Shown here: positions 8,265 through 40,315 of the stretch, in pieces
Layout of the letters: every line of letters begins with the position of its first letter
How positions within the stretch are numbered: the stretch's first letter is position 1
DNA from: Syntrophorhabdaceae bacterium
GTDB taxonomy: Bacteria > Desulfobacterota > Syntrophorhabdia > Syntrophorhabdales > Syntrophorhabdaceae
Assembly (NCBI GenBank): GCA_035541755.1
Contig: DATKMQ010000063.1
Location: 13,364 to 77,363, forward strand
Direction: 5' to 3'
Length of the DNA: 64,000 nucleotides
Program-made: the position numbers and the translations under genes
The notes under the pieces: model-generated
What the model was told of the DNA's origin: nothing
Database searches by the model: none
What the model saw: only the letters and a program-made list of their open reading frames with translations

Positions 8265-8273
8265 ACGTAAGGC

Positions 8274-18457: not shown

Positions 18458-18907
18458 ATGCCTGATGCGATTGAAACGATTCTCAAGAAACATGGACGGA
18501 CTTCCGATGAATTGATCCCTATCCTGCAGGACGTCCAAAAAGCAATCGGCTACGTTGGTCCGGAATCAATATCAAAGATATCCCGCCATTTGAAGATCTC
18601 GGAAAACCAGATATTCGGCGTCTCGTCTTTCTACGCCCAATTCCGATTTACCGAGCCGGGACGTCACTCGGTCAAAGTGTGTCTCGGCACAGCCTGTCAT
18701 GTAAAGGGGGGCGCCACCCTGCTCGAAATGGTTGAGCGCGACCTCGGCATCACCTGCGGGGAGACCACCGAAGATAAACGCTATGACCTGGAACGGGTTG
18801 CCTGTCTCGGATGTTGCGCCCTCTCTCCCGTCGTACAGATTGATCGCGATATATACAGCAGGATGTCGGTAAATAAACTAACGGAGCTCTTAAAAAAATA
18901 TGAATAA
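18458..18907 (+). CDS. NuoE/HydC-like thioredoxin-fold [2Fe-2S] subunit
   Basis: 149 aa. Cys pattern 'VKVCLGTACHV...VACLGCCALSP'. Confidence 0.9.
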   Translation: MPDAIETILKKHGRTSDELIPILQDVQKAIGYVGPESISKISRHLKISENQIFGVSSFYAQFRFTEPGRHSVKVCLGTACHVKGGATLLEMVERDLGITCGETTEDKRYDLERVACLGCCALSPVVQIDRDIYSRMSVNKLTELLKKYE

Positions 18908-20780: not shown

Positions 20781-22978
20781 CAAAAGAAAAGAGACTATCC
20801 ATTACCATCGATAACAGAAAAGTTGAAGTGAAACCACATCTCACCATATTGCAGGCCGCCAAGGAGCATGGCATCTACATACCGTCGCTCTGTACTCTCG
20901 AGCACCTTCCCTCGTATGGTGCGTGCAGGCTTTGTGTCGTTGAGGTGGATGGCTTGAGGGGCTTTCCTACGTCCTGTACTACGCCGGTGGAAGACGGAAT
21001 GGTCATCAGGACAGATACCGGGGAGATCAGGACACTTCGCCAGGAGGTGCTCAAACTACTCTTGAGCGAACATCCGGCCAGTTGTCTGTTCTGCACCGAG
21101 CAGGGCGAGTGCAAACAATACCAGGGCACCATAAGGAAGGTAGGGGTAACCACAGGCTGCCGGTACTGTCCAAACGACGAGCGCTGTGAACTTCAGCTCA
21201 TTACCGAAAGGATCGGTCTTGCGGACACATCATACCCTGTTTACTATCGCAACTTTCCGGTAGAGAAATTCGATCCGTTCTACGATAGAGATTACAATCT
21301 CTGCATTCTCTGCGGGCGCTGTGTTCGTGTATGTAGCGAGGTGCGTCTCAACGGAACGCTCAGCTTCAAACAGCGAGGCAAGGCGACGACCATCGGCCCG
21401 GCCTTCGACCGCTCCCATCTGGATGCCGGCTGTGAATTCTGCGGGGCCTGCGTGACCGTTTGCCCCACAGGAGCGCTCAGTACAAAGACGAGTAAATGGT
21501 ACGGTAAGCCTGACGCAGAGGTCAAAACAACCTGTCTTTACTGTCCCGTGGGCTGTGAGCTTATGCTTCAGATCAAGCATAACGAGACCATAGACGTACT
21601 CCCCAATTACGATTCGCCATTGGACAGGGGTCTTCTCTGTGTGAAAGGGCGTTTCGCTGTGCCCGAATACGTGTGCAGCTCCGAACGCCTCTCACACCCC
21701 CAACGTATGACGCCGGTGGGTTATGAAGACATCTCCTGGGATGAGGCTTTAGACCTGGCGGCGCAGAAGTTGTCCGAAACAAGACCCGAGGACATGCTTT
21801 TCGTTGTTTCACCTCAGCTCACCAATGAGGATCTCTTCATGGCCTGCCATCTGGCCAGAGGCGCGATCGGTACAGATGAGATTCTCTCCCCTGTGATTTC
21901 TGATTTGGGGGAGGACCTTGTCCCATTTCTCAACCTTACGTTGGCGGCAAGTCCCTTCGACGTTATCGATTCAGCCGACACAATCGTCGCGGTCGGATTC
22001 GATGCAACATACGGTTTTACGCCGCTTGGCATCAGAATTAAAGAGGCCGCGAAAGGGGGGGTAGCGCTTATAACTCTCAATGGCTATGGATCCAACCTCG
22101 ATATGCTGTCCGAGGAGGCCCTGTGCTTCGACGCTACGAAATGGCCGTCAGTCCTGGATAAGTTCATGGGCAAGACGCCTGGCAACGGAAAAGGCCGCAG
22201 GTCGTCCCACAAGGTGATTGTCATGGGAGAAGAGGCGATCTTTTCACGAAAGCGTGGCGAGCTTTTTGAGAAGATCATGAAGATGAAGGAATACTTCGGC
22301 TGGAATGTGATCGTCGCGCATCCTTATACGAACCTTCTCGGGCTTCTGTCCATGGGGGCTTTCCCCGGTATTAACAGAGGAGAGCTGCTCCGTAATGGTT
22401 CCAGGGGGACGACCCTCACGCTTAAGAAGGGTCTTTTGGCGTCTGTGAATATGAGCAAGCCGCGAAAGGCTGGCTATGTCATCGGAGAAGCACAATTGGA
22501 AAATATGCCTCACTGCGAATTCCTCATCTACCAGAATGCGTTGCCGCCCGCATCTTCACGCAAGCCGGATTTAATCCTTCCTTCAAGCCTGTTCAGCGAA
22601 ACGCCCGGCACGGTCGTGAGCATGGAGGGAAGGGTGTTGCAGGTGCGCAAGGCCACGGAACCGTATGCAGAATCCAGGCCTGACTGGTGGATTATGAGTA
22701 AGATTTCAGAAAAGATCAGTAAGGATGCCTTAAAATTCCGATCGCTCTCTGCAATACAGGCGGAAATAAAGAAACAGATGGCGGGTTTCTTCGATGGAAA
22801 AAGCAGACTGGAATTTCGGAAAATCGGCGCAAGACAGACCGATCTGGGCGCGAGCGGTACACGTCGGGCGGGACCGGGGACTTCGCGCAAACCGTGGCAA
22901 CAGATGTACCGGGGGATCGATCTTCAGGATATTGTCCCGGGCATGCGGGTCATAGAGCAAAGGAGATGCCATGAATAG
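20777..22978 (+). CDS. NuoG/FdhA-like Fe-S subunit with a truncated, apparently cofactor-less molybdopterin-oxidoreductase domain
   Basis: [2Fe-2S] 'CRLCVVEV', 'HPASCLFCTEQGEC', 'CILCGRCVRVC', 'CEFCGACVTVCP' and a Mo-type Fe4S4 'TTCLYCPVGC...LLCVKG'. Start set at ATG 20777 (ATGA overlap with the upstream stop), not the 20687 ORF-track start. Confidence 0.85.
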   Translation: MTKEKRLSITIDNRKVEVKPHLTILQAAKEHGIYIPSLCTLEHLPSYGACRLCVVEVDGLRGFPTSCTTPVEDGMVIRTDTGEIRTLRQEVLKLLLSEHPASCLFCTEQGECKQYQGTIRKVGVTTGCRYCPNDERCELQLITERIGLADTSYPVYYRNFPVEKFDPFYDRDYNLCILCGRCVRVCSEVRLNGTLSFKQRGKATTIGPAFDRSHLDAGCEFCGACVTVCPTGALSTKTSKWYGKPDAEVKTTCLYCPVGCELMLQIKHNETIDVLPNYDSPLDRGLLCVKGRFAVPEYVCSSERLSHPQRMTPVGYEDISWDEALDLAAQKLSETRPEDMLFVVSPQLTNEDLFMACHLARGAIGTDEILSPVISDLGEDLVPFLNLTLAASPFDVIDSADTIVAVGFDATYGFTPLGIRIKEAAKGGVALITLNGYGSNLDMLSEEALCFDATKWPSVLDKFMGKTPGNGKGRRSSHKVIVMGEEAIFSRKRGELFEKIMKMKEYFGWNVIVAHPYTNLLGLLSMGAFPGINRGELLRNGSRGTTLTLKKGLLASVNMSKPRKAGYVIGEAQLENMPHCEFLIYQNALPPASSRKPDLILPSSLFSETPGTVVSMEGRVLQVRKATEPYAESRPDWWIMSKISEKISKDALKFRSLSAIQAEIKKQMAGFFDGKSRLEFRKIGARQTDLGASGTRRAGPGTSRKPWQQMYRGIDLQDIVPGMRVIEQRRCHE

Positions 22979-23828
22979 AGTCATTGAAAGGACCATGATA
23001 GTTCCTAACATGCACCTCCTTGTGATTGAGGCCCCGGAGATTTCGTCAAAGGTAAGGCCGGGCCAGTTTGTCATTATCCGTGCAAACGATGAAGGCGAAA
23101 GGATACCCCTGTCTGTCGCGGACTGGAACAAAGAGCAGGGAACCGTTACCACCGTTTTCATGGAGGTAGGGGCTTCCACCGGGGCGCTTGCGTCGCTTGA
23201 AAAGGATGATGCGGTCGCCACGTGCGTCGGCCCGCTCGGAAATTCGACTGAGATCGGCCGGTTCGGTACGGTTCTCTTGATCGCTGGATGCTACGGCATC
23301 GGCAGCATCTATCCGGTGGCGAAGGAATTGAAAGCCGCCGGAAACCAGGTGATTACCGTACTCGAGGCCAGGAGTTCTTACCTCATTTACTGGGCAAAGA
23401 GGTTTGCCAGTCTCTCTGAGAAGATCTTTAGCGTAACGAGAGACGGGAGTCTCGGCATGAAGGGACATATTACGAGGCTCACGGAGATCATCCACTCCCT
23501 GCCCCAGCCTCCCGACCGAGTCATTGTGAACGGTTGCACCTATCTCATGGCCCACACATCAGAGGTCACGAGGGAACTCGGCATTCCCACGCTCGTGAAC
23601 TTAAACCCCATCATGATCGACGGGACGGGTATGTGCGGTGTGTGCCGGGTTACAGTAGGCGGTCAAATGAAATTCGCCTGTGTTGACGGCCCGGAATTTG
23701 ATGGCCACAAGGTGGATTGGAAGGAATTTCTCTCGAGACGTAAGGCGTACATGAGCGAAGAGACACTCTTTTTCAGACATAGCGAGCCCCACACTAAGGC
23801 CCATAAAGAAGGGAAGTGCCAGGCATGA
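22971..23828 (+). CDS. nfnA: NfnA-type small subunit (FAD/[2Fe-2S], sulfide dehydrogenase SudB-like)
   Basis: 285 aa. 'PGQFVIIR', 'ERIPLSVAD' and [2Fe-2S] 'DGTGMCGVCRVTVGGQMKFACVDGPEF'. Confidence 0.85.
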   Translation: MNRVIERTMIVPNMHLLVIEAPEISSKVRPGQFVIIRANDEGERIPLSVADWNKEQGTVTTVFMEVGASTGALASLEKDDAVATCVGPLGNSTEIGRFGTVLLIAGCYGIGSIYPVAKELKAAGNQVITVLEARSSYLIYWAKRFASLSEKIFSVTRDGSLGMKGHITRLTEIIHSLPQPPDRVIVNGCTYLMAHTSEVTRELGIPTLVNLNPIMIDGTGMCGVCRVTVGGQMKFACVDGPEFDGHKVDWKEFLSRRKAYMSEETLFFRHSEPHTKAHKEGKCQA

Positions 23829-25249
23829 ACGAAGAAAAAACCCCCGAAAAACAAAGCAAGATCGACCTCAATCGAAGAGACATGCCCAAACAGTCTCCAG
23901 AGATGAGGAGCCACAACTTTAGCGAGGTGGCGCTAGGTTACAACACGGAATTGGCACTCAGCGAGGCAAGCCGTTGCTTAAAGTGCAAGAAGCCGAGGTG
24001 CGTCACCGGATGTCCCGTAGAGATAGACATCCCTGGCTTCATTTCGTGCATCGTGCAAAATGATTTTTCCGCAGGCATCAAGAAACTCAAAGAAAAAAAC
24101 TGTCTGCCGGCTGTCTGCGGAAGGGTCTGCCCTCAGGAATCCCAGTGCGAATCGCAGTGCATTTTGAAAAACAAGGGCGCTGAGGTGGCTATCGGCCGGT
24201 TGGAAAGATTTCTCGCCGATTGGGAGGCACACAGCGGTCAGGTGGACGTCCCACCAAAAACCAAATCGAGCGGAAAGAAGGTGGCGATTGTGGGCTCGGG
24301 TCCGGCGGGGATCACCGTGGCCGGCGATCTGGTTCTCTTGGGCCACGAGGTTACCATCTTTGAGGCGCTTCACAGAGCGGGTGGCGTTCTCACGTACGGT
24401 ATTCCCGAATTTCGTCTGCCCAAGGCCATAGTGGCACGAGAAGTCGCCTACGTGAAAAGTCTTGGGGTAAATGTCATTACCGATTTCGTGGTGGGCAAGA
24501 CACGGACTATCGATGAACTCCTCGACGCATTCGACGCGATCTTCATTGGGACGGGTGCGGGCCTGCCCTGGTTCATGAACATTCCCGGTGAGAACTTAAA
24601 CGGGGTTTATTCGGCGAATGAGTACCTGACCCGCATGAATCTCATGCAGGGGTATCGATTCCCCCACTCTTCAACACCTATCAAGAAGCACAGGAAGGTC
24701 GCCGTGGTAGGGGGTGGAAATGTAGCTATGGATTCGGCCCGAACCGCACTCAGGATGGGGGCCGATGAGGTGCGTATCATTTATCGCAGATCCCATGCAG
24801 AGCTCCCGGCACGGCTTGAGGAAAGTGAGAATGCCGAGGAAGAAGGCGTGATTTTCAATATGCTTACCCTGCCCGTCAGATATATCGGTGACGAAAACGG
24901 ATGGCTCAAGGAGATCGAATGCCTCAAGATGGAGCTTGGCGAACCCGACGCGTCAGGCAGAAGAAAGCCCGTTGAGGTGCCAAACTCGAATTTCCGCATT
25001 GAAATGGATGCCGTGGTCTGCGCCATCGGGAACAGCCCGAACCCGCTCGTTCCCTCCACCACACCCGGCCTTGACACCACGCGCCACGGAACGCTCGTGG
25101 CCAACGAGCAAACCGGAAAGACGACCCGAAGCCGCATATGGGCGGGCGGCGACATTGTTACCGGGGCGGCAACCGTCATCCTTGCCATGGGCGCGGGACG
25201 AAAGGCGGCAAGGTCCATGCACGAATATTTGACGACAGGCGTAGAGTAA
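23816..25249 (+). CDS. nfnB: NfnB-type large subunit (GltD-like, 2x[4Fe-4S] + FAD/NADPH)
   Basis: 477 aa. 'CLKCKKPRCVTGCPV', 'CGRVCPQESQCESQC', 'VAIVGSGPAGITVAG' and 'GGDIVTGAATVILAMGAGR'. Confidence 0.85.
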   Translation: MPGMNEEKTPEKQSKIDLNRRDMPKQSPEMRSHNFSEVALGYNTELALSEASRCLKCKKPRCVTGCPVEIDIPGFISCIVQNDFSAGIKKLKEKNCLPAVCGRVCPQESQCESQCILKNKGAEVAIGRLERFLADWEAHSGQVDVPPKTKSSGKKVAIVGSGPAGITVAGDLVLLGHEVTIFEALHRAGGVLTYGIPEFRLPKAIVAREVAYVKSLGVNVITDFVVGKTRTIDELLDAFDAIFIGTGAGLPWFMNIPGENLNGVYSANEYLTRMNLMQGYRFPHSSTPIKKHRKVAVVGGGNVAMDSARTALRMGADEVRIIYRRSHAELPARLEESENAEEEGVIFNMLTLPVRYIGDENGWLKEIECLKMELGEPDASGRRKPVEVPNSNFRIEMDAVVCAIGNSPNPLVPSTTPGLDTTRHGTLVANEQTGKTTRSRIWAGGDIVTGAATVILAMGAGRKAARSMHEYLTTGVE

Positions 25250-25406: not shown

Positions 25407-25751
25407 GTGTTGAGGGATGGTGACATAAGGGTCTACGAGATGCAGGCGGATATGTGTGCTGCTCTTGCCAATGCTAAACGATTACAAATACTTAACCTCT
25501 TAAAGGATGGGGAGGTATCGGTTGCCCAAATGGTAAGGGTCACGGGCGTTAGCAAGGCCAATCTCTCCCAGCATCTCGCTATACTCAGACAAAGAAACCT
25601 CGTATCGACCAGGAGGCAAGGGACTACCATCTATTACACAATCTCGAACCCCAAAATCACGGAAGCTTGTGCAATCATCCGGGGAGTTCTCATCGAAATG
25701 CTCAAAGAAAAAGTGAAGCTCTCCAAAAGGATGCAGGAAGTGAAGCTTTGA
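25407..25751 (+). CDS. ArsR/SmtB-family winged-helix transcriptional regulator
   Basis: 'CAALANAKRLQILNLLKDGEVSVAQMVRVTGVSKANLSQHLAILRQRNLVSTRRQGTTIYY'. GTG 25407 or ATG 25440 could be the start. No alpha3 'CVC' metal site. Confidence 0.85.
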   Translation: MLRDGDIRVYEMQADMCAALANAKRLQILNLLKDGEVSVAQMVRVTGVSKANLSQHLAILRQRNLVSTRRQGTTIYYTISNPKITEACAIIRGVLIEMLKEKVKLSKRMQEVKL

Positions 25752-25773
25752 CCTTTTATCGGGAGCCAGTAGT

Positions 25774-25789
25774 TGCGATATATCGCAAT
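25774..25789. promoter_or_regulatory. Perfect 16-bp palindrome TTGCGATATATCGCAA (candidate operator)
   Basis: Self-complementary over all 16 nt. It lies 23 nt after the ArsR-family stop, and no T-tract follows it. Confidence 0.35.
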
Positions 25790-26537
25790 TAAGAAATAAT
25801 TAGGCACTCGTTATCGTCACTAATAATAGAGAGTTACATAGCTAAAGAAGAGTCGGCGTAGCCTGCGAGGAATCAAAGGACCGAGAGCATGTGCTTTCGC
25901 TTAAAACATGGGGACACAACACACAGGCAGTACCTCATGGCGGCCTTCTTCTTCGTACTCATTGCTTCTGCATAGCTTACTTAGGTCGCAGGATACCCCG
26001 TCACGATCCAAATCACGGCCGGCTTCACCATGGCCCTGAGAGAACCCGGGACGGATGCGTATGTCCGAGAGGCATATTCTCATTGGAGGCGTATCTCTCA
26101 CACGCATAACCCGGTGTTGCCAAGGCCTTTCGGTTTGTTCAGGTTCTCCTTTCGGTGATGCGTGCGCTCTTTAAGTGGTCCTCGGTATGCATGGTACTCA
26201 GATTTCATGGTTTGGCCCGATCCACACGCGATGGGTTCAGCATTCGTAACAATTTTCAGTGCGACGAAAGGCGCTCGTCACTGCCTCGGTCTTCACTTCA
26301 CATCAACGTTCGCGGGGCTTGATCTCTTCATTTGTACGATTTCGACCAACTCTGTTTGGCCGTTCGGAAAGATGCGTTGCAGCGCGCTGGCCCCACGTAA
26401 AAAAGACTCTTTTTGACTTGACAAAATGGAGCTTCCTTGTGCATATTATCACAAAACAGAGACAGGGGTTCTATCCTCGTCTAAAAGGGGGTATTCTCAC
26501 AATACCATTTCATCATTGAATCTTCACCGGGTTCACC

Positions 26538-28607
26538 ATGAATAACACAGGACAAGATCTTATAGAACACGAAGAACACACCAACCGGGGCCTCACCATT
26601 GACAGTAGAAAATGCCGTCTCTGTCTGTACTGCGTGCAGCTTTGCCCTTCGAAGGCCGTAAAGCTTGAAAAAGACACGATCAAGGTAATTCCTGAACGGT
26701 GTATCCTGTGTGCGAGTTGCATCAAAGGCTGTCCTCAACACGCAATGAGCCTGTATGGCGGCCTTGGTACGGTGGGAAGTGTGCTCGCCTCGGGCGCTAA
26801 GACGATCGCCTGTCTTGACCCTGCCTTTCCTGCCGCTTTTGATGCCGAGAGCCCGCGCCGATTCGTTACCGCATTGAAGAAGCTCGGGTTTACCGAAGTC
26901 TGGGAGGGGGCCTTCGGCGTGGAACTCGTAAGCCAGGCTTATAGAAGACTACTCGACAGCAATACCGGCTCCCCGCTCATCTCGTCATTTTGCCCTGCTA
27001 TTGTCTTCTACATCCAGAAATATCTACCTCAGCTCATCCCCAATCTGGCGCCTATCGTGTCCCCAATGATTGCGATAGGCAAGGTGGCGCGCCACATCAA
27101 GGGGAATGATTGGAAGACCATATATATTACGCCCTGCCTTGCACAGGTGGGGGAGAGCGTGGCGGACGAGGTAGCCGGGGTGATAGATCACGTCATCACA
27201 TTCCGTGACGTCCAGCGCATGCTTGATGCGGCAGGCATAGACCAGGGTAAGCTCGAAGAAACCGAATTTGATGGTCCGCGACCCTTTTTGGGCAGAATCA
27301 TGCCGGTGATCGGCGGCCTGAATCGAAGCATGGGTTCAAGCTTTGACGTGCTCGAGGACGAAGTAAGCGTGGCATACGGACGGCGACAGGTGATAGGCCT
27401 TCTCAATCAGCTTGCCTCCGGTTACATACGAGCGGGGTTCCTCGATCTTGTCTATTGTGACGGTTGTATTGACGGGCCCTTCATCGACAGAGAACTCTCG
27501 GTACTCGGGAGAAGACATGTTATTGCCCGATATACCAAGGGTGAGATGGCCAAACAGAATATGTCCGATGTCCACAAAGAACTCGAGAAATACCAAGGTA
27601 TCGACCTTGGTCGTGAGTTCCGTAATACGGAAGAGAAACTTACCGCGCCTTCCGAAGAAGAAATAGAAACGATCCTCAAGAAGATAGACAAGCTCCCGCC
27701 CAGCAACAACCTTGACTGCAGGGCCTGCGGATACGCGACCTGTCGTGATAAGGCCATAGCCGTTGCCCAGGGGCTCGCTGACGCACAATTCTGTCTCCCC
27801 TACCTGCTTGACCAGAGCAACAAGATCTATCAGCAACTTGAGAAGTCGCATCGCGAGCTGCAAAAATCGCATCAAGAACTCGAACATGCCCAGTATCAGC
27901 TCATCCGCACAGAGAAGCTGGCAGCCCTGGGGCAACTCGCTGCAGGTGTGGCCCACGAAATCAATAACCCGCTTGGTACCATTACTATATACGCGCACAT
28001 ACTGTTAAAGACTATGGAGACCGAAGATCCGAGACGGGATGATATCGCGCTTATCATTAACGAGGCAAACCGTACAAAAGGTATCGTTCAGGGGCTCTTA
28101 AGTTTCGCGCGCGAGACCAAGCTCAAACCGGGCGACACGGATATTAATGAGCTCCTCGAAGACGCTCTCGGGCTTCTCGTCAACCAGTCCCTGTTCCAGA
28201 ACATAAAAATAAAGAAAAATTTTGCCAAAGACCTGCCCGCCATATTTGCCGACGGGACTCAGCTTAAGCAGGTGTTCTTAAATATTGTCCTCAACGCAGC
28301 GCAGGCAATGGAAGGCAAGGGCAATCTCGCGATTACAACATGGTTGCAAAAAGACCATATAAAGATTAGGATTCGTGATACAGGCCCGGGCATTCTGCCG
28401 GAACATGTGGCAAAACTCTTCAACCCCTTTTTCACCACCAAAGAGAAGGGTACCGGGTTGGGGCTTGCCATCTCTTACGGGATTATCGAGAGGCATTCCG
28501 GCAAAATCGAAGTCGACACCGAATTGGAAAGAGGAAGCACCTTTACCATTTCCTTACCTCTGGGCAGAGACGAAAAGGATTTGCAGGACGAAACAAAGAG
28601 GCATTAA
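26538..28607 (+). CDS. Sensor histidine kinase with N-terminal 2x[4Fe-4S] ferredoxin, [FeFe]-hydrogenase-large-subunit-like domain and a CxxCGxxxC Fe-S module
   Basis: 'CRLCLYCVQLCP' and 'CILCASCIKGCP'. Hydrogenase-like strings 'SSFCPAIV', 'ITPCLAQVGE' and 'LVYCDGCIDGP'. 'DCRACGYATCRDKAIAVAQG...FC'. H-box 'AHEINNPL' and HATPase 'GTGLGLAISYGII'. Confidence 0.85.
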   Translation: MNNTGQDLIEHEEHTNRGLTIDSRKCRLCLYCVQLCPSKAVKLEKDTIKVIPERCILCASCIKGCPQHAMSLYGGLGTVGSVLASGAKTIACLDPAFPAAFDAESPRRFVTALKKLGFTEVWEGAFGVELVSQAYRRLLDSNTGSPLISSFCPAIVFYIQKYLPQLIPNLAPIVSPMIAIGKVARHIKGNDWKTIYITPCLAQVGESVADEVAGVIDHVITFRDVQRMLDAAGIDQGKLEETEFDGPRPFLGRIMPVIGGLNRSMGSSFDVLEDEVSVAYGRRQVIGLLNQLASGYIRAGFLDLVYCDGCIDGPFIDRELSVLGRRHVIARYTKGEMAKQNMSDVHKELEKYQGIDLGREFRNTEEKLTAPSEEEIETILKKIDKLPPSNNLDCRACGYATCRDKAIAVAQGLADAQFCLPYLLDQSNKIYQQLEKSHRELQKSHQELEHAQYQLIRTEKLAALGQLAAGVAHEINNPLGTITIYAHILLKTMETEDPRRDDIALIINEANRTKGIVQGLLSFARETKLKPGDTDINELLEDALGLLVNQSLFQNIKIKKNFAKDLPAIFADGTQLKQVFLNIVLNAAQAMEGKGNLAITTWLQKDHIKIRIRDTGPGILPEHVAKLFNPFFTTKEKGTGLGLAISYGIIERHSGKIEVDTELERGSTFTISLPLGRDEKDLQDETKRH

Positions 28608-28637: not shown

Positions 28638-29039
28638 ATGGGCAAAAAAAGAATCTTGGTCATCGATGACGATGTGGATTTCGTGGATCTCAACAAGGCT
28701 ATCCTCGAAAACAGCGGATTCGAGGTAGTGACAGCATTTTCGGGCCGTGAAGGCATGGATAAGGTCAAGTTTGAATCGCCTGACCTTATCATGCTCGATC
28801 TCATGATGGAAAAGCACGACTCGGGTTTTAACTTTGCAAAGACCATCAAGGCAGATCCTCGCTATAAAAACATACCGATTCTTATGATCTCATCAGTGAA
28901 AACAGAAACCGGGTACGATTTTTCCATGGACCTCGACGGCTACTGGATGAAGACCGATGATTTTGTCGGTAAACCGGTTGCGCCGGAAGAACTGCTCAAG
29001 CGCATCAACAGTCTTTTGGCGAAAGAACAAAAAGAATAA
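28638..29039 (+). CDS. Stand-alone response-regulator receiver (CheY-like, no output domain)
   Basis: 133 aa. 'LVIDDDVD', 'IMLDLMM' and 'FVGKPV'. Confidence 0.9.
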   Translation: MGKKRILVIDDDVDFVDLNKAILENSGFEVVTAFSGREGMDKVKFESPDLIMLDLMMEKHDSGFNFAKTIKADPRYKNIPILMISSVKTETGYDFSMDLDGYWMKTDDFVGKPVAPEELLKRINSLLAKEQKE

Positions 29040-29055: not shown

Positions 29056-30549
29056 ATGGCTGAGACAGCGCACATCCTGGTAGTTGATGATGAGAAGGGT
29101 ATCCGTGAAGGGTGCCGAAGGATCCTCGTCAGCGAAGGATATGCCGTTGATTTGGCGGAAAACGGGAAAGAGGCCCTGGACATGGTGCGAGCAAAACCCT
29201 ACGACCTCCTCCTTGTCGATCTCATGATGCCTGTCATGGGAGGTATGGAGCTCATGGAAGAGGTAGGGCAGATTGACCCTGAAATCATCATGATCGTCAT
29301 TACCGGTTTTGCAACGGTGGAAACCGCTGTCGACGCCATGAAGCGAGGCGCGTATGACTACATCCCAAAACCCTTCTCGCCTGACCAGCTCATCTCTGTT
29401 CTCAACAGAGGCCTTGAAAAGAGACGGCTCAGGATCGAGACGGAAAAGCTCCGTGAGGAAAGGGATCAGAAGCTCCTTGAAATAGCCAGCGAAAAATCGA
29501 AGCTTCGTACCGTGGTCAACTCAATGGCCGATGGGATCATTGTTATCAACCGCGAGGGTCAGCTCGTGCTCTTTAACCCCGCGGCGACTAAAATGCTTGA
29601 TCTCGATCAAAGACTCGAGCTCGGCAAGAGTGTCCTCGACATCATAGTGCAAAAGGATTTGCTCGACCTTATAAACAAGGCCTTTTCTCCTGATTCCTCA
29701 AGGTACACGGTTCTTTCCGAGGAGATCGAACTGACCGGGGCGGAATCAAAGACCCTTATGGTCAACGTTGCGAGGGTAGAGGACGAGATGGGCCGCGATC
29801 TCGGCGCGGTGAGCACTTTTCGCGACATAACAGGACTTAAGGAGATCGAGGAGATAAAATCGCAGTTTGTCCGGATGGTTGCGCACGAACTCAGGGCGCC
29901 TCTGGCGGCGGTGACCGGGTACCTGACGGCCTACCTCACAGGGGTAGCAGGCACCGATCCTCAGGTGAACCGCCAGATGCTGGAGCGGGCCCGGCTCAGG
30001 GCTGAGTCGCTTATCGAGCTGGTAAACGATCTTTTGCAGTTCGCGAGACTCGAATCAAAGAAGGTCGAAAGAAAAAAGGAGCTTCTCGACATATCGGAAA
30101 TTATCGTGAACACCGTAGAACTCCTAAAACCTCAGGGTGCAGGCAAAGACCTCGTCTTTGAGCTCAACATCCCGGCCAAGCTACCCTTGATCGAAGCGGA
30201 CCGGACAGAAATGGATCAACTCATCACAAACCTTGTATCAAACGCCATAAAGTATAATGTAAAAGACGGCAAGGTCGTGGTCAGCGCCACGCCGGATACT
30301 CATTTCTTGACCATTAAGGTGGCCGACACGGGAATCGGCATTGAAGAGGAGTTTCTGCCCTGTATTTTTGATGAATTCTATCGGGTGCAGGGGCCTAATA
30401 CGCGGTACACCACGGGGACCGGCCTCGGGTTATCGATCGTGAAGAAGATCGTGGAATCCAATTTCGGCCGTATCGAAGTGGAAAGTCAGGTAGACAGAGG
30501 AACTACGTTTACGGTGAAACTACCCCTCAAGGGGATGGATAGAGAATAA
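29056..30549 (+). CDS. Receiver-PAS-histidine kinase (N-terminal REC hybrid kinase)
   Basis: REC 'LVVDDEKG...LLLVDLMMP...YIPKPF', a PAS region, H-box 'AHELRAPL' and HATPase 'GTGLGLSIVKKIV'. Confidence 0.9.
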   Translation: MAETAHILVVDDEKGIREGCRRILVSEGYAVDLAENGKEALDMVRAKPYDLLLVDLMMPVMGGMELMEEVGQIDPEIIMIVITGFATVETAVDAMKRGAYDYIPKPFSPDQLISVLNRGLEKRRLRIETEKLREERDQKLLEIASEKSKLRTVVNSMADGIIVINREGQLVLFNPAATKMLDLDQRLELGKSVLDIIVQKDLLDLINKAFSPDSSRYTVLSEEIELTGAESKTLMVNVARVEDEMGRDLGAVSTFRDITGLKEIEEIKSQFVRMVAHELRAPLAAVTGYLTAYLTGVAGTDPQVNRQMLERARLRAESLIELVNDLLQFARLESKKVERKKELLDISEIIVNTVELLKPQGAGKDLVFELNIPAKLPLIEADRTEMDQLITNLVSNAIKYNVKDGKVVVSATPDTHFLTIKVADTGIGIEEEFLPCIFDEFYRVQGPNTRYTTGTGLGLSIVKKIVESNFGRIEVESQVDRGTTFTVKLPLKGMDRE

Positions 30550-30579: not shown

Positions 30580-32838
30580 ATGGCGAACAAAGAAACGAAA
30601 CTCAACGAGATCGTGGAGAAAAGGCTACTTGCTCCCTCGATCACCATGTACAAACTCTATGTGCCGGATATCGCAAAAAAGGTCAAGGCAGGCCAGTTCG
30701 TCGTGGTCCGATGCGATGACATGGCCGAACGTGTCCCGCTCACGGTCGCCGATTTCGACCGCAAACAAGGCACTATCACGATTATTTTCCAGGAAGTCGG
30801 TGCCTCGACGCAGAAGCTGGGGAAATTCGAACAAGGTGACTCACTTCTTGACGTGGTCGGCCCCCTCGGCAAACCGAGCCACATCGAGAAATTCGGCACC
30901 GTGGTCTGCGTGGGCGGGGGAGTCGGTGTGGCGCCGGTCCTTCCTATCGCAAAAGCGCTCTTCGAAGCAGGCAACGAGGTGATTTCGATTATCGGCGCCC
31001 GCACGAAAGAGATGCTTATCCTCGAGGAAGAGATGAAAAAGGCGAGCACAAAACTCTACGTAACGACCGATGACGGCACCTACGGCCACCACGGTTTTGT
31101 TACCGACGTGTTAAAGCAGGTCATCGAGGAGAAGAAAAAGATCGACCTCGTCGTGGGCATCGGCCCGGTCGTCATGATGAGGGCCGTTTCCGACGTGACG
31201 AGACCCCATAACATTAAGACCGTCGTCTCCCTCAACACGATCATGGTGGATGGGACCGGTATGTGCGGTTGCTGCAGGGCGACGATCGGTGGAGAGACAA
31301 AGTTTGTCTGCGTTGATGGGCCTGAATTTGACGGCCATCAGGTCGATTTCAAGGAACTGGTACTGCGCCAGAAGATGTATAATCGCGAAGAAAGACGCGC
31401 CATGTGGGATCACGCCTGTAAACTTGAAGCCAAAGCCAAGGCCATGAAGAAGTCGAAGCTCAGGGAAAAGATGCCCGAGCAAGACCCCAAAAATAGGATC
31501 CAGAATTTTAGCGAAGTTGCCCTGGGCTATACCCACGACAACGCGCTCAGGGAAGCATCGAGGTGCCTCCAGTGCAAGAACTCTCCCTGTGTTGAAGGCT
31601 GTCCGGTCAATGTCCAGATTCCTGCCTTCATCAAGCAGATAAGGGAAGGCGATTTCATGGGCGCCATCCACACGATCAAATCGACAAACAGTCTGCCCGC
31701 CGTCTGCGGCCGCGTATGCCCCCAGGAAACCCAATGCGAACAGAAGTGCGTACTCGGAAAGAAAGGACAGCCCGTGGCCATCGGTCGACTGGAACGCTTC
31801 GCCGCGGATTATGAGCTGCACAAGGGCGACGTAAGGGCTCCCCAGAAAACGAAAAGCACGGGAAAGAAGGTCGCCGTAATCGGCGCCGGCCCATCCGGGC
31901 TCACGGTTGCCGGCGAACTTTCGAAAAAGGGACACGATGTGACGGTCTTCGAGGCCCTGCACAAGGCGGGAGGGGTCTTGGTATACGGTATTCCCGAGTT
32001 CCGTCTGCCCAAGGCCGTGGTGCAGCGCGAGGTAGACTATGTTGAGAAACTCGGCGCGAAGATCAAAGTGGACACCATAGTCGGTCAGACCATGACGCTT
32101 GACGAACTCTTTGAAGCAGGATTTGATGCGGTCTTTATCGGCACAGGTGCGGGGCTTCCCTATTTCATGAATATCCCCGGTGAAAACCTAAACGGAGTTT
32201 ACTCGGCAAACGAGTTTCTCACCAGGGCAAATCTGATGAAGGCCTACCTCTTTCCGGAATACGATACGCCGGTCAGAGTGGGTAGCAGGGTCGCTGTAGT
32301 AGGCGGCGGGAATGTGGCCATGGATGCGGCAAGGGTCTCTAAACGGCTCGGCGCCAATGTCTATCTCATTTATCGCCGTTCCAAAGAGGAGATGCCCGCG
32401 CGGGCCGAAGAAGCTCACCACGCCCAGGAGGAGGGCATAGATTTCAGGCTCCTCACCAACCCGGTAAGGATCATAGGCGATGAAAACGGCTGGGTCAAGG
32501 GCATCGAATGTGTGAAGATGGAGCTTGGCGAGCCCGATGCCTCAGGCAGGAGAAGACCGGTTGAGATCAAGGGCTCCAATTATGTAATCGATGTTGATGT
32601 AGTAATCATAGCCATTGGCCAGGGTCCGAACCCGATCCTCACATCCACCACGCCGGGGTTGAAGTTGAGAAAGTCAGGCAACATAGAGGCAGACGCCGAG
32701 ACTGGCCAGACGAGCCGTGAAGGCGTGTTCGCCGGCGGTGACATAGTGACCGGGGCAGCGACCGTCATCCTTGCAATGGGCGCCGGAAGAGCGGCCGCAA
32801 AAGCAATTGACGAATATCTCGCGGCCAAGACCAAATAG
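30580..32838 (+). CDS. nfnAB: Fused NfnA-NfnB (single-polypeptide NADH-dependent ferredoxin:NADP+ oxidoreductase-like)
   Basis: 752 aa. Residues about 1-280 align with the 22971 product ('DGTGMCGCCRATIGGETKFVCVDGPEF'). Residues about 300-752 align with the 23816 product ('CLQCKNSPCVEGCPV', 'GGDIVTGAATVILAMGAGR'). Confidence 0.88.
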   Translation: MANKETKLNEIVEKRLLAPSITMYKLYVPDIAKKVKAGQFVVVRCDDMAERVPLTVADFDRKQGTITIIFQEVGASTQKLGKFEQGDSLLDVVGPLGKPSHIEKFGTVVCVGGGVGVAPVLPIAKALFEAGNEVISIIGARTKEMLILEEEMKKASTKLYVTTDDGTYGHHGFVTDVLKQVIEEKKKIDLVVGIGPVVMMRAVSDVTRPHNIKTVVSLNTIMVDGTGMCGCCRATIGGETKFVCVDGPEFDGHQVDFKELVLRQKMYNREERRAMWDHACKLEAKAKAMKKSKLREKMPEQDPKNRIQNFSEVALGYTHDNALREASRCLQCKNSPCVEGCPVNVQIPAFIKQIREGDFMGAIHTIKSTNSLPAVCGRVCPQETQCEQKCVLGKKGQPVAIGRLERFAADYELHKGDVRAPQKTKSTGKKVAVIGAGPSGLTVAGELSKKGHDVTVFEALHKAGGVLVYGIPEFRLPKAVVQREVDYVEKLGAKIKVDTIVGQTMTLDELFEAGFDAVFIGTGAGLPYFMNIPGENLNGVYSANEFLTRANLMKAYLFPEYDTPVRVGSRVAVVGGGNVAMDAARVSKRLGANVYLIYRRSKEEMPARAEEAHHAQEEGIDFRLLTNPVRIIGDENGWVKGIECVKMELGEPDASGRRRPVEIKGSNYVIDVDVVIIAIGQGPNPILTSTTPGLKLRKSGNIEADAETGQTSREGVFAGGDIVTGAATVILAMGAGRAAAKAIDEYLAAKTK

Positions 32839-38800: not shown

Positions 38801-39494
38801 ACCCTAATACCCCCTTTGAGAGTATGATGATCCCCATGGCCGTTATCGATAAACCGGCCATGCGCTCTCCTGTAAGCCTTGCCTTGAGCGAGAAGGTGGA
38901 GCCCAATAAGCCGGTGAACAACAAGACAGGCAGAGTCCCTAAACCAAAGACGATCATGATAAGAAATCCTTGAGTGATATCAGCCGTGAAAGCGGCCCTT
39001 AAGACCATCGCCCAGGAAAGCATGCAGGGCAAAAAGCCTGTCGCAAAGCCGAGCGTTGCCTTGACTAACGCATGGGGCGACCTCAAGCGCTTTCCTATAA
39101 ATCTCATGACAAACGAAGATTTTGAGTCGGACGATGTCTCGGTGAAATATCCCGCAGGGATCACCTTGAGCACGATCAAACCCAACACGACCATGAACGC
39201 GCCCGCCGCAGCCGTGGCCGGAGTACGTATGTCCTTTAACGCTGAGGCCAGACTCCCGCAATAGACAAGTCCGGCGCCGACGCCCCCTAAGAGTCCGTAC
39301 GCGGCTATCCTTCCTGCCTGAAACGCCGCGTGATGCGTAAGACCCGCTACGTACGGGGGGCGCCCGGCACTAAGACCATCACTCGCCGGGCTGAACTGCA
39401 ACGAATAGGCAACTACAATTGGACCGCACATACCGAGACAATGAAGACTCCCGGCAAGACCGGTCAACAATGCCCAGAGCAGGTCCGCGTTCAT
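38790..39494 (-). CDS. TauE/SafE- or DsbD_2-like membrane protein with 'HCLGMCGP' motif (cbb3/metal-maturation associated)
   Basis: 234 aa and polytopic. 'GSLHCLGMCGPIV' near the N-terminus. Overlaps both neighbours (ATGA upstream, 11 nt downstream). Confidence 0.6.
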   Translation of the reverse strand: MNADLLWALLTGLAGSLHCLGMCGPIVVAYSLQFSPASDGLSAGRPPYVAGLTHHAAFQAGRIAAYGLLGGVGAGLVYCGSLASALKDIRTPATAAAGAFMVVLGLIVLKVIPAGYFTETSSDSKSSFVMRFIGKRLRSPHALVKATLGFATGFLPCMLSWAMVLRAAFTADITQGFLIMIVFGLGTLPVLLFTGLLGSTFSLKARLTGERMAGLSITAMGIIILSKGVLGFVR

Positions 39495-40000: not shown

Positions 40001-40290
40001 TCGGCGCGCCTCCCTGCTTTTTGTTGCGGCGGGATCGGTTTCTCTGAAACGTGCTGTAGATGCGGCTCTCCGGTGTTTCCAGCAGGTTGAGGAGATGTGG
40101 AATAGAGGGATTTTCCGGGAGTATCTTCCACATCCGTGAAGTCCCAATCCGGCGGGCCTTTGTCCCCTATCGTGAAAAACATGAAGAGCCCGTACAGCAA
40201 GAATATGACTGCGAGGCCTATGACAAAGAACCATGCTTTAAGGGTTGTCCTATCCTCATCGTCTCTTTTGGTTTCACCTGGAATATCCAT
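39997..40290 (-). CDS. Hypothetical single-TM protein (97 aa)
   Basis: 'MDIPGETKRDDEDRTTLKAWFFVIGLAVIFLLYGLFMFF...'. SD GAGGGG. Its stop overlaps the next start (ATGA). Confidence 0.45.
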   Translation of the reverse strand: MDIPGETKRDDEDRTTLKAWFFVIGLAVIFLLYGLFMFFTIGDKGPPDWDFTDVEDTPGKSLYSTSPQPAGNTGEPHLQHVSEKPIPPQQKAGRRAE

Positions 40291-40315
40291 TCGCCCCTCT
40301 GCCACAAGTGCGGGC

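What the first reader, a model, noticed from the sequence alone, without database searches (positions are those of the whole stretch)
26538..28607. Histidine kinase whose sensor is a ferredoxin plus [FeFe]-hydrogenase-like domain
The N-terminal half contains 2x[4Fe-4S] (CRLCLYCVQLCP and CILCASCIKGCP). This is followed by a domain collinear with the H-cluster domain of [FeFe]-hydrogenases:
- 'SSFCP' in place of TSCCP. The cluster-ligating Cys is kept, and the proton-relay Cys is replaced by Phe.
- 'TPCLAQVGE' in place of MPCxxKxxE. The Cys is kept and the Lys is lost.
- 'VYCDGCIDG' in place of MxCxGGCxxG, one residue shorter.

Next come a CxxCGxxxC...C Fe-S module, a coiled coil and a standard HisKA/HATPase transmitter. 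The architecture resembles the putative sensory (HydS-type, group C) hydrogenases. However, it is fused directly to a kinase and has substitutions that argue against turnover. It is a candidate H2, redox or Fe-S-status sensor.
Basis: partly seen in the sequence, partly recalled or inferred. Interest (0 to 1): 0.7.

Follow-up and report, generated by a model that had tools for sequence, protein, structure and literature searches.

The report
Hydrogenase-derived iron-sulfur sensor kinase, Nfn-linked
This gene encodes a signalling kinase whose sensor is a remodelled [FeFe]-hydrogenase domain that keeps its iron-sulfur cluster ligands but has probably lost the hydrogen-splitting di-iron site, and it always travels with a redox-balancing transhydrogenase (NfnAB), so it is a good candidate for how syntrophic bacteria sense their internal electron (or H2) status.

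Summary
ORF 26538-28607 (+) encodes a 689-aa protein with 2x[4Fe-4S] ferredoxin, an [FeFe]-hydrogenase H-domain (Pfam 4e-41), a Cx2Cx4Cx16C Fe-S module, a helical linker and an intact HisKA/HATPase kinase. All three motif claims hold in HMM alignments to CpI/HydA. The general kind is known but uncharacterised: HydDB group C1, "histidine kinase-linked, putative sensory".

New findings here:
- The one-residue L3 deletion is shared by a large HK-fused clade that keeps K358 and A230 and often lies beside hydA and hydE/G/F. The deletion alone is therefore not evidence against an H-cluster.
- The window protein belongs to a derived subclade nested in that clade (Syntrophorhabdales, "Syntrophus", Smithella, KSB1, Eubacteriales). 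In it A230->D and K358->Q/R/H are universal, C299->F/V, and the di-iron cavity positions show relaxed constraint.
- This subclade never has hydA/hydEFG within 10 kb (0/27 loci against 34/53). It is the first gene of a conserved four-gene operon: HK, REC, REC-PAS-HK, fused NfnAB. The operon is also present in cultured S. aromaticivorans UI.

Best reading (about 0.55): an Fe-S redox-poise sensor, no longer an H2 sensor. A modified H2 sensor remains possible (about 0.3).

The parts
26538..28607 (+). Hydrogenase-like sensor histidine kinase, 689 aa (NCBI HVN95876.1, 100% identical)
   Evidence: ORF; Pfam architecture; identical protein P0001 from a Syntrophorhabd* MAG on an 81-kb contig
26595..26747 (+). 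Ferredoxin-like domain with 2x[4Fe-4S] motifs, residues 20-70 (C26/29/32/36 and C55/58/61/65); inferred electron entry point
   Evidence: Pfam Fer4_10/Fer4_7/Fer4; all 8 Cys invariant in alignment A1
26799..27479 (+). [FeFe]-hydrogenase H-domain homologue, residues 88-314
   Evidence: Pfam Fe_hyd_lg_C 4.2e-41; phmmer/hmmsearch to HydA/CpI at 1e-22 to 2e-31; Foldseek
26817..26825 (+). D94-P95-A96, equivalent to CpI A230-P231-S232. Asp replaces Ala at the di-iron cavity and is invariant in the Nfn-linked clade
   Evidence: Alignment: D in 26/26 Nfn-linked against A in 48/48 hydrogenase-linked; gap-free local context LDPAFP against IAPSFP
26982..26996 (+). L1/P1 variant SSFCP. F151 replaces the proton-relay Cys299; C152 is the cluster ligand Cys300
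   Evidence: alignment; F in 114/125 and C in 125/125 close homologues
27129..27155 (+). L2/P2 variant TPCLAQVGE. C200 = Cys355, T198 = Met353, Q203 = Lys358 (lost), E206 = Glu361 (kept)
   Evidence: alignment; position 203 is Q66/H37/R22 and never K in 125 close homologues
27450..27476 (+). L3/P3 variant VYCDGCIDG. C307 = Cys499 and C310 = Cys503, with one residue deleted between them and no GGGQ
   Evidence: Profile-to-PDB alignment; [YF]-C-x-G-C-[VI]-D-G-P conserved
27711..27800 (+). C-terminal Fe-S module C394-x2-C397-x4-C402-x16-C419 (PF04060); the last ligand sits at the start of the signalling helix
   Evidence: Pfam FeS 6e-8; Cys positions; same Cx2Cx4Cx16C motif as M2e/M2f sensory hydrogenases (PMC8163306)
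27801..27926 (+). Helical linker (residues 422-463) joining the Fe-S module to the DHp domain
   Evidence: AF2 helix 422-439 running to the end of the model; sequence YQQLEKSHRELQKSHQELEHAQYQLIRTEKL. Coiled-coil character is inferred
27927..28565 (+). HisKA (464-526, phospho-acceptor H473) and HATPase_c (572-676) transmitter with intact N, G1, F and G2 boxes
   Evidence: Pfam; motif scan; NCBIfam best partial matches AtoS/ZraS-type kinases, all below cutoff
28638..29039 (+). Stand-alone receiver (REC) protein, 133 aa, 30 nt downstream of the kinase; likely phosphotransfer partner
   Evidence: Pfam Response_reg 9.5e-20; conserved at this position in 23/23 Nfn-linked loci and in strain UI
29056..30549 (+). 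REC-PAS-HisKA-HATPase hybrid kinase, 497 aa; second tier of the relay
   Evidence: Pfam; conserved in 22/23 loci, in hydrogenase-linked relatives and in strain UI
30580..32838 (+). Fused NfnA-NfnB (NfnSL-type NADH-dependent ferredoxin:NADP+ oxidoreductase), 752 aa, 30 nt downstream of the relay genes
   Evidence: Pfam; residues 295-749 match T. maritima NfnB 4ylf_B (6.5e-186) and residues 10-273 match P. furiosus NfnI small subunit 5jca_S (4e-98); present in 23/23 Nfn-linked loci
26418..26447 (+). Sigma-70-like promoter match (TTGACA-18-CATATT, 10/12) about 90 nt upstream of the kinase start; candidate operon promoter
   Evidence: Consensus scan only, not significantly enriched over shuffles. 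No + strand terminator-like site was found inside the four-gene cassette

Best explanation
This is a soluble Fe-S-cluster redox-sensing histidine kinase descended from the kinase-linked (HydDB C1-type) sensory [FeFe]-hydrogenases.

Shown:
- It carries ligands for four cubane clusters: two in the ferredoxin domain, one at the former H-cluster site (C152, C200, C307, C310) and one in the Cx2Cx4Cx16C module.
- It has a complete HisKA/HATPase transmitter.
- It is the first gene of a tightly spaced, conserved operon: HK, REC, REC-PAS-HK, fused NfnAB.

Inferred:
- In this subclade the di-iron subsite has been lost or disabled. The changes are A230->Asp, K358->Gln/Arg/His and C299->Phe, with relaxed constraint on the cavity positions.
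- The H-domain therefore now holds only a [4Fe-4S] cluster and serves as one link in an intramolecular electron wire.
- Electrons from reduced ferredoxin, or directly from the co-expressed NfnAB, enter at the N-terminal clusters and equilibrate down to the C-terminal cluster.
- The last ligand of that cluster (C419) begins the helix that runs into the DHp histidine (H473). The cluster's redox state thus sets the autokinase/phosphatase balance.
- Phosphate then passes to the single-domain REC and to the REC domain of the PAS kinase, which relays to an unidentified output.

The signal read is the ferredoxin/NAD(P)H redox poise that Nfn equilibrates, rather than H2 itself.
For: - Architecture and motifs.
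- The four H-site Cys are invariant in 125/125 close homologues.
- All proton-pathway residues are replaced.
- Cavity residues were defined from PMC10147833. Against the sister hydrogenase-linked clade, the Nfn-linked clade has A230D (26/26 against 0/48) and K358->R/Q/H (26/26 against 0/48), plus I268G, C299F/V, F417->aliphatic and M497->V.
- Relaxed constraint: mean entropy of the 15 cavity sites is 0.34 against 1.87 for the rest of the H-domain in the hydrogenase-linked clade (45% mean identity). It is 0.77 against 1.17 in the less diverged Nfn-linked clade (59% identity).
- Genomic context: hydA/hydE/hydG/hydF lie within +-10 kb in 0/27 loci of this clade and in 34/53 other loci (Fisher p 4e-9). 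A fused NfnAB lies immediately downstream in 23/25 loci against 0/53.
- The clade is monophyletic and nested within K358-bearing forms.
- Intergenic gaps are 30, 16 and 30 nt.
- The same cassette occurs in cultured S. aromaticivorans UI.
- From memory, not verified here: exchange of K358 in CpI/CrHydA1 severely impairs H-cluster occupancy and activity (Knorzer et al. 2012, J Biol Chem).
Against: - No cofactor was observed; everything about [2Fe] loss is inferred from sequence.
- Position 203 is always an H-bond donor (Q/H/R), and E361, S323-P324 and M177 stay fixed, so a re-tuned di-iron site cannot be excluded.
- Validated H-cluster-binding sensors (TmHydS, TamHydS) already tolerate changes at C299, M353 and M497 (PMC8163306).
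- The pocket change and the context switch map to a single branch of the tree. The association is therefore one evolutionary event, and the Fisher p-values overstate independence.
- Whether these genomes encode hydEFG elsewhere could not be checked.
- No DNA-binding response regulator is conserved near the cassette, so the output is unknown.
- The AF2 model was too poor (mean pLDDT 61.9) to examine the cavity.
Confidence: 0.55

Rival explanations
1. It is still a true H2 sensor. HydEFG encoded elsewhere in the genome install a di-iron subcluster in a re-tuned pocket, with Gln/Arg/His replacing Lys358 as the cyanide H-bond donor and Phe151 blocking proton exit so that a reduced state is trapped. 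H2 reduces the cluster chain, and the kinase reports H2 partial pressure, the key thermodynamic variable for a syntroph. The cell then adjusts Nfn-mediated redox balancing.
For: - All four H-cluster cysteines, E361 and S323-P324 are invariant.
- Position 203 is restricted to H-bond donors Q/H/R.
- Sister-clade proteins with the same L3 deletion are embedded between hydA and hydE-hydG-aspA-hydF (L028) and are often hydA/hydEFG-linked.
- Characterised sensory hydrogenases also lack C299 and the proton pathway and still bind an H-cluster (PMC8163306).
- The hosts are syntrophs (Syntrophorhabdus, Smithella, 'Syntrophus'), for which H2 sensing would be valuable.
Against: - K358 and A230 are invariant in all 48 hydrogenase-linked relatives and in the four CxGGC forms, but are replaced in all 26 members of this clade. 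One replacement is a carboxylate (Asp94) next to where the anionic CN-ligated cluster would sit.
- Cavity positions show relaxed constraint.
- No hydA or maturase gene lies within 10 kb in 27 loci or anywhere in the 64-kb window.
Confidence: 0.3
2. It senses oxidants or Fe-S cluster integrity (O2, NO, iron or sulfur limitation). Cluster degradation or loss, rather than reversible reduction, switches the kinase, as in FNR/NreB-type sensors. This would protect oxygen-sensitive ferredoxin-dependent metabolism.
For: - Four predicted cubane clusters give many oxidant-labile sites.
- The window also encodes cbb3-type oxidase, a qNor-like NorB and other respiratory genes, so the organism meets O2 or NO.
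Against: - The strictly conserved partner is NfnAB, not oxidative-stress, Suf/Isc or respiratory genes.
- The respiratory genes lie more than 8 kb away on the other strand and are not conserved with the cassette.
- A four-cluster wire is more elaborate than known cluster-loss sensors. This last point is an inference.
Confidence: 0.1
3. The hydrogenase-like half is not a signal-input domain. It is a docking or electron-transfer subunit of the Nfn (or upstream Bfu-like) complex, and the kinase half is regulated by other inputs such as the PAS kinase.
For: - Group C3 proteins have been treated as a 'T' subunit of BfuABC gene clusters (PMC11406978).
- It is co-transcribed with NfnAB, and a Bfu-like operon lies upstream in 7-9 loci.
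Against: - The Fe-S module is fused in-frame through a continuous helix to the phospho-acceptor domain, the standard layout for an input domain.
- The HK-REC-REC-HK trio is conserved independently of which redox enzyme lies next to it.
Confidence: 0.05

Closest known systems
HydDB [FeFe]-hydrogenase group C1, 'histidine kinase-linked (putative)' sensory hydrogenases, including the HATPase-containing C1 proteins reported in Hydrogenedentota
   Same: - H-domain homologue combined with histidine-kinase signalling (PMC5037454).
- Degenerate P1-P3 motifs and a fused HATPase_c domain were noted for Hydrogenedentota C1 proteins (PMC11406978).
- The Hydrogenedentota locus L042 falls in the sister clade in my tree.
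- Shared features: the L3 C-x-G-C deletion, the C-terminal Fe-S module, and the downstream REC and REC-HK genes.
   Different: - Those relatives keep A230 and K358 and a strongly constrained cavity, and are frequently next to hydA and/or hydEFG.
- The window protein's subclade has D230 and Q/R/H358, relaxed cavity constraint, no hyd genes nearby and a fused NfnAB as its invariant partner.
- No C1 member has been characterised biochemically, as far as the searched literature shows.
HydS-type sensory [FeFe]-hydrogenases: Thermotoga maritima HydS (group C, M2f) and Thermoanaerobacter mathranii HydS (group D, M2e)
   Same: - N-terminal 2x[4Fe-4S], H-domain and C-terminal Cx2Cx4Cx16C module.
- C299 and the whole proton pathway are not conserved, and M353/M497 are replaced (PMC8163306).
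- 33-39% identity to PAS-type relatives such as P0220 from Pelotomaculum.
   Different: - PAS-type relatives in my data set keep K358, A230 and the canonical C-x-G-G-C L3. TmHydS and TamHydS themselves were not aligned here.
- TmHydS and TamHydS bind a spectroscopically verified H-cluster.
- They signal through PAS or neighbouring proteins, not a fused HisKA/HATPase.
- They sit next to bifurcating hydrogenases.
Eukaryotic hydrogenase-like proteins Nar1 / NARFL (IOP1) of the cytosolic Fe-S assembly pathway
   Same: Functional analogy only: an [FeFe]-hydrogenase H-domain that retains the cubane-ligating cysteines but carries no di-iron subcluster and does not turn over H2 (general knowledge, not tested here).
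   Different: - Eukaryotic, and acts in Fe-S protein maturation rather than signalling.
- No kinase.
- Recalled to keep the canonical CxxxC spacing.
- No direct sequence comparison was run here, so this is a 'works like', not a membership claim.
Regulatory [NiFe]-hydrogenase HoxBC with kinase HoxJ (group 2b, histidine kinase-linked)
   Same: Logic: a catalytically poor hydrogenase module coupled to a histidine kinase to report H2 (HydDB table, PMC5037454).
   Different: Unrelated fold and cofactor. Sensor and kinase are separate polypeptides. It controls hydrogenase genes, not a transhydrogenase.

Membership tests
[FeFe]-hydrogenase H-domain (Pfam Fe_hyd_lg_C) superfamily | Significant sequence and fold similarity to the H-domain | tested here: met
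   Pfam 141.6 bits (cutoff 22.1), E 4.2e-41. Profile against PDB: HydA2 2e-31, HydA1 7e-31, CpI 1e-28. Foldseek top 50 are all [FeFe]-hydrogenases.
Catalytic [FeFe]-hydrogenase (groups A/B) | Four cysteines ligating [4Fe-4S]H and bridging to [2Fe]H (CpI C300, C355, C499, C503) | tested here: met
   C152, C200, C307 and C310 align to them and are invariant in 125/125. The C499-C503 spacing is one residue shorter.
Catalytic [FeFe]-hydrogenase (groups A/B) | P1 TSCCPxW with the proton-relay Cys299, and the proton pathway E279/E282/R286/S319 | tested here: not met
   SSFCPAI: F151 at C299. E279Q, E282R, R286L, S319A (alignment).
Catalytic [FeFe]-hydrogenase (groups A/B) | P2 MPCxxKxxE with Lys358 contacting the distal CN ligand | tested here: not met
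   TPCLAQVGE: Q203 at K358; Q/H/R and never K in 125 homologues. Role of K358 as described in PMC10147833.
Catalytic [FeFe]-hydrogenase (groups A/B) | P3 ExMxCxxGCxxGGGQ | tested here: not met
   DLVYC-DGCIDGPFI: one-residue deletion, M497V, no GGGQ. NCBIfam TIGR04105 scores 159 bits against a cutoff of 450.
Catalytic or sensory H-cluster proteins in general | HydE, HydF and HydG maturases encoded in the genome | not testable with these tools
   None in the 64-kb window and none within +-10 kb in 27 loci of this clade. The rest of the genomes could not be read, and the literature held gave no statement for Syntrophorhabdus.
Putative sensory [FeFe]-hydrogenases (M2e/M2f; groups C/D) | N-terminal 2x[4Fe-4S] domain + H-domain + C-terminal Cx2Cx4Cx16C motif, with the proton pathway absent | tested here: met
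   Definition taken from PMC8163306.
Putative sensory [FeFe]-hydrogenases (M2f, group C3/HydS) | PAS domain fused C-terminally | tested here: not met
   No PAS hit in this protein at E <= 0.01. The PAS domain lies in the neighbouring REC-PAS-HK.
HydDB group C1 (histidine kinase-linked) | H-domain protein coupled to a histidine kinase | tested here: met
   Direct fusion to HisKA/HATPase_c. Clusters with Hydrogenedentota-type C1 relatives.
HydDB group C1 (histidine kinase-linked) | Assignment by the HydDB k-NN classifier | not testable with these tools
   HydDB is not available here.
HydDB group C1 (histidine kinase-linked) | Genomic association with a catalytic hydrogenase, which is the basis of the proposed H2-regulatory role | tested here: not met
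   0/27 loci of this subclade against 34/53 of the other loci.
HisKA-family sensor histidine kinase | H-box histidine and N, G1, F and G2 boxes | tested here: met
   H473 (HEINNPL), NIVLNA, DTGPG, FNPFF, GTGLGL. Pfam HisKA 1e-11 and HATPase_c 1e-25.
NfnAB (NfnSL) transhydrogenase, the conserved operon partner | NfnA-like FAD/[2Fe-2S] module plus NfnB-like 2x[4Fe-4S]/FAD/NADPH module | tested here: met
   4ylf_B 6.5e-186; 5jca_S 4e-98; 4ylf_A 2.5e-77. Pfam domains. Here the two are fused in one 752-aa chain.

The most novel reading that the evidence does not exclude
A lineage of sensory [FeFe]-hydrogenases has shed its di-iron subcluster. It has been re-purposed as a four-cluster 'redox wire' input domain of a histidine kinase that reads the ferredoxin/NAD(P)H poise set by an electron-bifurcating transhydrogenase (NfnAB), with which it forms a mobile four-gene module. 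This would be the first dedicated two-component sensor for the low-potential ferredoxin pool and flavin-based electron bifurcation, and a bacterial counterpart of the eukaryotic Nar1/NARFL 'hydrogenase without hydrogen' theme.
Probability: 0.45. Interest if true: 0.72.

Novelty: new variant of a known kind. Interest (0 to 1): 0.58.

Why it matters
How strict anaerobes, and syntrophs in particular, sense their internal low-potential electron pool or ambient H2 is essentially unknown. The 'sensory' [FeFe]-hydrogenases are the main candidates. Only PAS-type or stand-alone members have been studied, and none has a demonstrated signalling output.

This family offers a self-contained system: sensor, kinase, two receivers and a defined metabolic partner, NfnAB. 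It also offers a natural comparison pair. The hydrogenase/maturase-linked clade has an intact cavity, and the Nfn-linked clade has D230/non-K358. Together they could show which residues decide whether an H-domain holds a di-iron site and how cluster redox state is converted into phosphorylation.

The cassette is present in a cultured organism, S. aromaticivorans UI (WP_051409322.1), so the question is directly testable.

Tried and rejected
- **Sigma-54 promoter search** (TGGCAC-N5-TTGCA, up to 2 mismatches): 15 hits against 15.1 expected, none convincing upstream of the kinase. This gives no support for an NtrC-type output.
- **Rfam scan of the 787-bp upstream gap:** no match.
- **Search for a conserved DNA-binding response regulator** or any fifth conserved gene around the cassette in 23 loci: none. 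Only HK, REC, REC-PAS-HK and NfnAB are conserved, and the upstream ArsR gene is present in only about 3 other loci.
- **AF2 model of the sensor half** from an 18-sequence alignment: mean pLDDT 61.9, with the Fer4 domain, residues 252-277 and the L3 loop below 50. It is usable only to confirm the fold, and no coordinates are available for cavity analysis.
- **Idea that the L3 one-residue deletion alone marks loss of the H-cluster:** rejected, because relatives embedded in hydA-hydEFG clusters share it.
- **Literature search** for hydrogenase or maturase content of Syntrophorhabdus, and for any description of an Nfn-linked hydrogenase-like kinase: nothing found. Nobu et al. 2015 and Greening et al. 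2016 are not held.
- **Upstream 763-aa 'FdhA-like' gene as a formate dehydrogenase:** not supported. It aligns to FdsA only over residues 37-465 and lacks a Molydop_binding hit, so it was left as NuoG/BfuA-like.


Full report
**1. Observation**

The ORF at 26538-28607 (+) is real and encodes 689 aa. Pfam finds these domains:
- a ferredoxin-type dicluster domain (residues 20-70)
- the [FeFe]-hydrogenase H-domain Fe_hyd_lg_C (88-314; E 4.2e-41, 141.6 bits against a 22.1-bit cutoff)
- the small 'FeS' domain PF04060 (392-421)
- HisKA (464-526)
- HATPase_c (572-676)

The protein has only 17 cysteines, and 16 of them fall into four cluster motifs: C26/29/32/36, C55/58/61/65, C152/200/307/310 and C394/397/402/419. 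The kinase H, N, G1, F and G2 boxes are intact.

- SSFCP aligns to TSCCP, so F151 = CpI C299 and C152 = C300.
- TPCLAQVGE aligns to MPCTSKKFE, so T198 = M353, C200 = C355, Q203 = K358 and E206 = E361.
- With a family profile, fldlvyC.eGCvdGp aligns to fvevmtCpeGCisGg. That is exactly one residue missing between C499 and C503.
- The same alignment shows that every proton-pathway residue is replaced: E279Q, E282R, R286L, S319A, C299F.

A shallow-MSA AF2 model is poor (mean pLDDT 61.9), but Foldseek still returns only [FeFe]-hydrogenases.

**2. Origin and size of the family**

The protein is 100% identical to NCBI HVN95876.1 from a Syntrophorhabd* MAG. More than 120 clusters at 90% identity share 63-82% identity and the same architecture. 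They are labelled Syntrophorhabdus, Syntrophorhabdaceae, Syntrophorhabdales, 'Syntrophus sp.' or Proteobacteria.

Searching with the sensor half alone shows that the module is combined with several different outputs:
- HisKA/HATPase
- GGDEF (P0151, P0238)
- HTH_8 (P0159)
- PAS, the classic HydS type (for example Pelotomaculum P0220)

**3. What is already known**

[quoted passage not shown] A 2024 survey of Hydrogenedentota found 53 C1 proteins carrying a HATPase_c domain. [quoted passage not shown]

Land et al. describe the M2e/M2f sensory classes as having the N-terminal 2x[4Fe-4S] domain and a C-terminal Cx2Cx4Cx16C motif. They lack C299 and the proton pathway and vary at M353 and M497 (PMC8163306). 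The window protein has exactly C394-x2-C397-x4-C402-x16-C419.

The general kind is therefore known, though uncharacterised. The fusion to a kinase is not in itself new.

**4. Comparative anatomy**

A scan of one genome per GTDB species returned 80 loci. I extracted the sensor protein from each and read off the residues that line the H-cluster. The cavity list comes from PMC10147833: K358, P324 and Q325 contact the distal CN, and S323, I268, A230, P231, S232, P354, F417 and V423 form the cavity. To these I added C299, M353, M497 and E361.

Three states emerge.

(a) Four CxGGC forms and the PAS-type HydS relatives keep the canonical L3 spacing.

(b) A large HK-fused clade of 48 loci has the one-residue L3 deletion. 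It spans Planctomycetota, Spirochaetota, Armatimonadota, Acidobacteriota, Hydrogenedentota and Bacillota. These proteins keep:
- A230 (48/48), P231 (48/48) and S232 (46/48)
- K358 (48/48) and E361 (47/48)
- an aromatic residue or Leu at F417
- G at M353 and L at M497

(c) The window protein's clade has 26 loci: Syntrophorhabdales, 'Syntrophus', Smithella, KSB1 and Eubacteriales. It also has the deletion, and in addition:
- A230->D (26/26)
- K358->R/Q/H (26/26; Q66/H37/R22 among 125 homologues)
- I268->G
- C299->F/V
- F417->I/V
- M497->V

The local alignment around A230 is gap-free (IAPSFP against LDPAFP).

A neighbour-joining tree places the CxGGC forms basally. It makes the deletion clade monophyletic and nests clade (c) as a single derived branch inside clade (b).

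**5. Genomic context separates the two HK clades**

In Planctomycetota locus L028 the gene order is (Pfam):
- NuoF-GltD fusion
- HydA (Fe_hyd_lg_C 338 bits, plus the small-subunit domain)
- HK sensor
- REC
- REC-HK
- HydE
- HydG
- AspA
- HydF

Across all loci, hydA and/or hydE/G/F lie within +-10 kb in 34 of 53 loci outside clade (c), and in 0 of 27 clade (c) loci (Fisher p 4e-9). The 64-kb window has none either.

Clade (c) is instead followed, in the same order and strand and with very short gaps, by three genes:
- a 133-aa stand-alone REC
- a REC-PAS-HisKA-HATPase protein
- a 752-aa fused NfnA-NfnB

This arrangement is present in 22-23 of 23 loci that extend far enough, and nothing else is conserved. 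In the window the gaps are 30, 16 and 30 nt, and no + strand terminator-like site was found inside the cassette.

The fusion is a bona fide NfnSL-type enzyme. Residues 295-749 match T. maritima NfnB (4ylf_B, 6.5e-186), and residues 10-273 match P. furiosus NfnI small subunit (5jca_S, 4e-98).

The same four genes occur in cultured S. aromaticivorans UI (WP_051409322.1; GCA_000512235.1). There they are preceded by transposase and integrase genes. The REC and REC-HK pair also follows the sensor in clade (b), so the three signalling genes are an ancestral module that changed its metabolic partner.

**6. Is the di-iron site still there?**

Because clade (b) shares the L3 deletion and yet sits among maturase genes, the deletion is not evidence against an H-cluster. 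The evidence for loss in clade (c) has four parts:
- the only charged residue contacting the distal cyanide (K358) is replaced
- a carboxylate is introduced at A230
- Phe occupies the position next to the bridgehead amine (C299)
- constraint on the cavity positions is relaxed

On the last point, the 15 cavity sites in clade (b) have mean entropy 0.34, against 1.87 for the rest of the H-domain (ratio 0.18; none of 20,000 random site sets is as low). In clade (c), which is less diverged overall (59% against 45% mean identity), they have 0.77 against 1.17 (ratio 0.66). M353, P354, K358, S232, F417 and M497 have all become variable.

Against loss:
- the four cysteines, E361, S323-P324 and M177 remain fixed
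- position 203 is always an H-bond donor
- verified sensory hydrogenases tolerate changes at C299, M353 and M497
- the pocket change and the context switch occurred on one branch, so they are a single evolutionary event and not independent observations
- I could not check whether these genomes encode hydEFG elsewhere

**7. Mechanism proposed (about 0.55)**

The protein is a soluble Fe-S redox-sensing kinase. The H-domain now carries only its cubane and forms part of a four-cluster wire.

The proposed path of the signal is:
1. Electrons from reduced ferredoxin, or from the co-expressed NfnAB, enter through the N-terminal ferredoxin domain.
2. They set the redox state of the C-terminal Cx2Cx4Cx16C cluster.
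3. The last ligand of that cluster (C419) begins the helix leading to H473.
4. The cluster's redox state therefore biases autophosphorylation.
5. Phosphate passes to the REC protein and to the REC-PAS-HK.

The final output is unknown. No DNA-binding regulator is conserved nearby, and no sigma-54 promoter or RNA element was found upstream.

What is shown: the domain composition, the ligand conservation, the operon and the clade-specific substitutions. What is inferred: cofactor content, the electron donor, and the direction and target of signalling.

Rival explanations:
- a re-tuned but genuine H2 sensor (about 0.3)
- an oxidant or cluster-integrity sensor (about 0.1)
- a structural or electron-transfer subunit of Nfn/Bfu (about 0.05)

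**8. Verdict**

It belongs to the known but uncharacterised kinase-linked sensory [FeFe]-hydrogenase lineage. Within it, it represents a distinct derived variant: D230/non-K358, Nfn-linked and maturase-unlinked. I did not find this variant described in the literature I could search. I rate it a new variant of a known kind, with interest about 0.58. It is not categorically new, but it offers an unusually clean and testable system for how anaerobes sense low-potential redox state or H2.

Noticed in passing
window 15665-16918 (+): A response-regulator receiver domain fused to LpxC (UDP-3-O-acyl-GlcNAc deacetylase), 417 aa. This suggests phosphorylation control of the committed step of lipid A synthesis. 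The same gene is present at 90% identity in L002.
   Followed up: no
window 18458-25249 (+): Five-gene Bfu-like operon just upstream of the cassette:
- a 149-aa ORF (NuoE-like by position, not scanned)
- NuoF/HydB-like, 626 aa
- a 763-aa NuoG/FdhA-like protein with HydA-type N-terminal Fe-S domains but a truncated molybdopterin part (aligned to FdsA only over residues 37-465, no Molydop_binding domain)
- NfnA-like, 285 aa
- NfnB-like, 477 aa

It is conserved upstream of the kinase cassette in 7-9 of 23 related loci. The substrate is unknown.
   Followed up: partly
L028 8189-9961; also L029, L035, L040, L055: The HydA genes adjacent to the hydrogenase-linked HK sensors carry P1 = TSCSPGW, with the second Cys (the position of the cluster ligand C300) replaced by Ser. 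P2 and P3 are canonical where checked: both in L028, P2 also in L029, L035 and L055, and no P2 match in L040. PMC11406978 notes that Ser at this position is common in several BfuA subtypes.
   Followed up: partly
L081 (S. aromaticivorans UI, KI867150.1 3079108-3101210), positions 6828-9556: In the cultured strain the four-gene HK-REC-REC-PAS-HK-NfnAB cassette is immediately preceded by an integrase, an HTH_17 protein and a DDE transposase. The cassette also occurs in KSB1 and Eubacteriales MAGs (L023, L026). Together these hint that it moves horizontally as a unit.
   Followed up: no
window 57165-62951 (+): A 1928-aa multidomain signalling protein: CheB methylesterase, CheR methyltransferase, several PAS and GAF domains, HisKA-HATPase and REC.
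   Followed up: no
window 36290-53895 (-): A block of respiratory and metal genes in a MAG from a lineage known for obligate syntrophs:
- Cu/heavy-metal P-type ATPase
- cbb3-type oxidase subunits (FixO-like, COX1)
- two NrfD-like membrane proteins with a 990-aa molybdopterin/4Fe-4S protein (ACIII-like)
- a multihaem cytochrome
- a 772-aa qNor-like NorB
   Followed up: no
window 25407-25751 (+) and 25752-26537: An ArsR-family regulator, followed by an unusually long 787-bp non-coding gap, precedes the kinase. ArsR is found near the cassette in only 3 other loci (L001, L006, L013). The gap has no Rfam match and only weak sigma-70-like sites.
   Followed up: partly
window 10403-11350 (-): IS1595-family transposase (DDE_Tnp_IS1595 plus zinc ribbon), in a lower-GC stretch (0.44-0.47 around 8-12 kb).
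   Followed up: no
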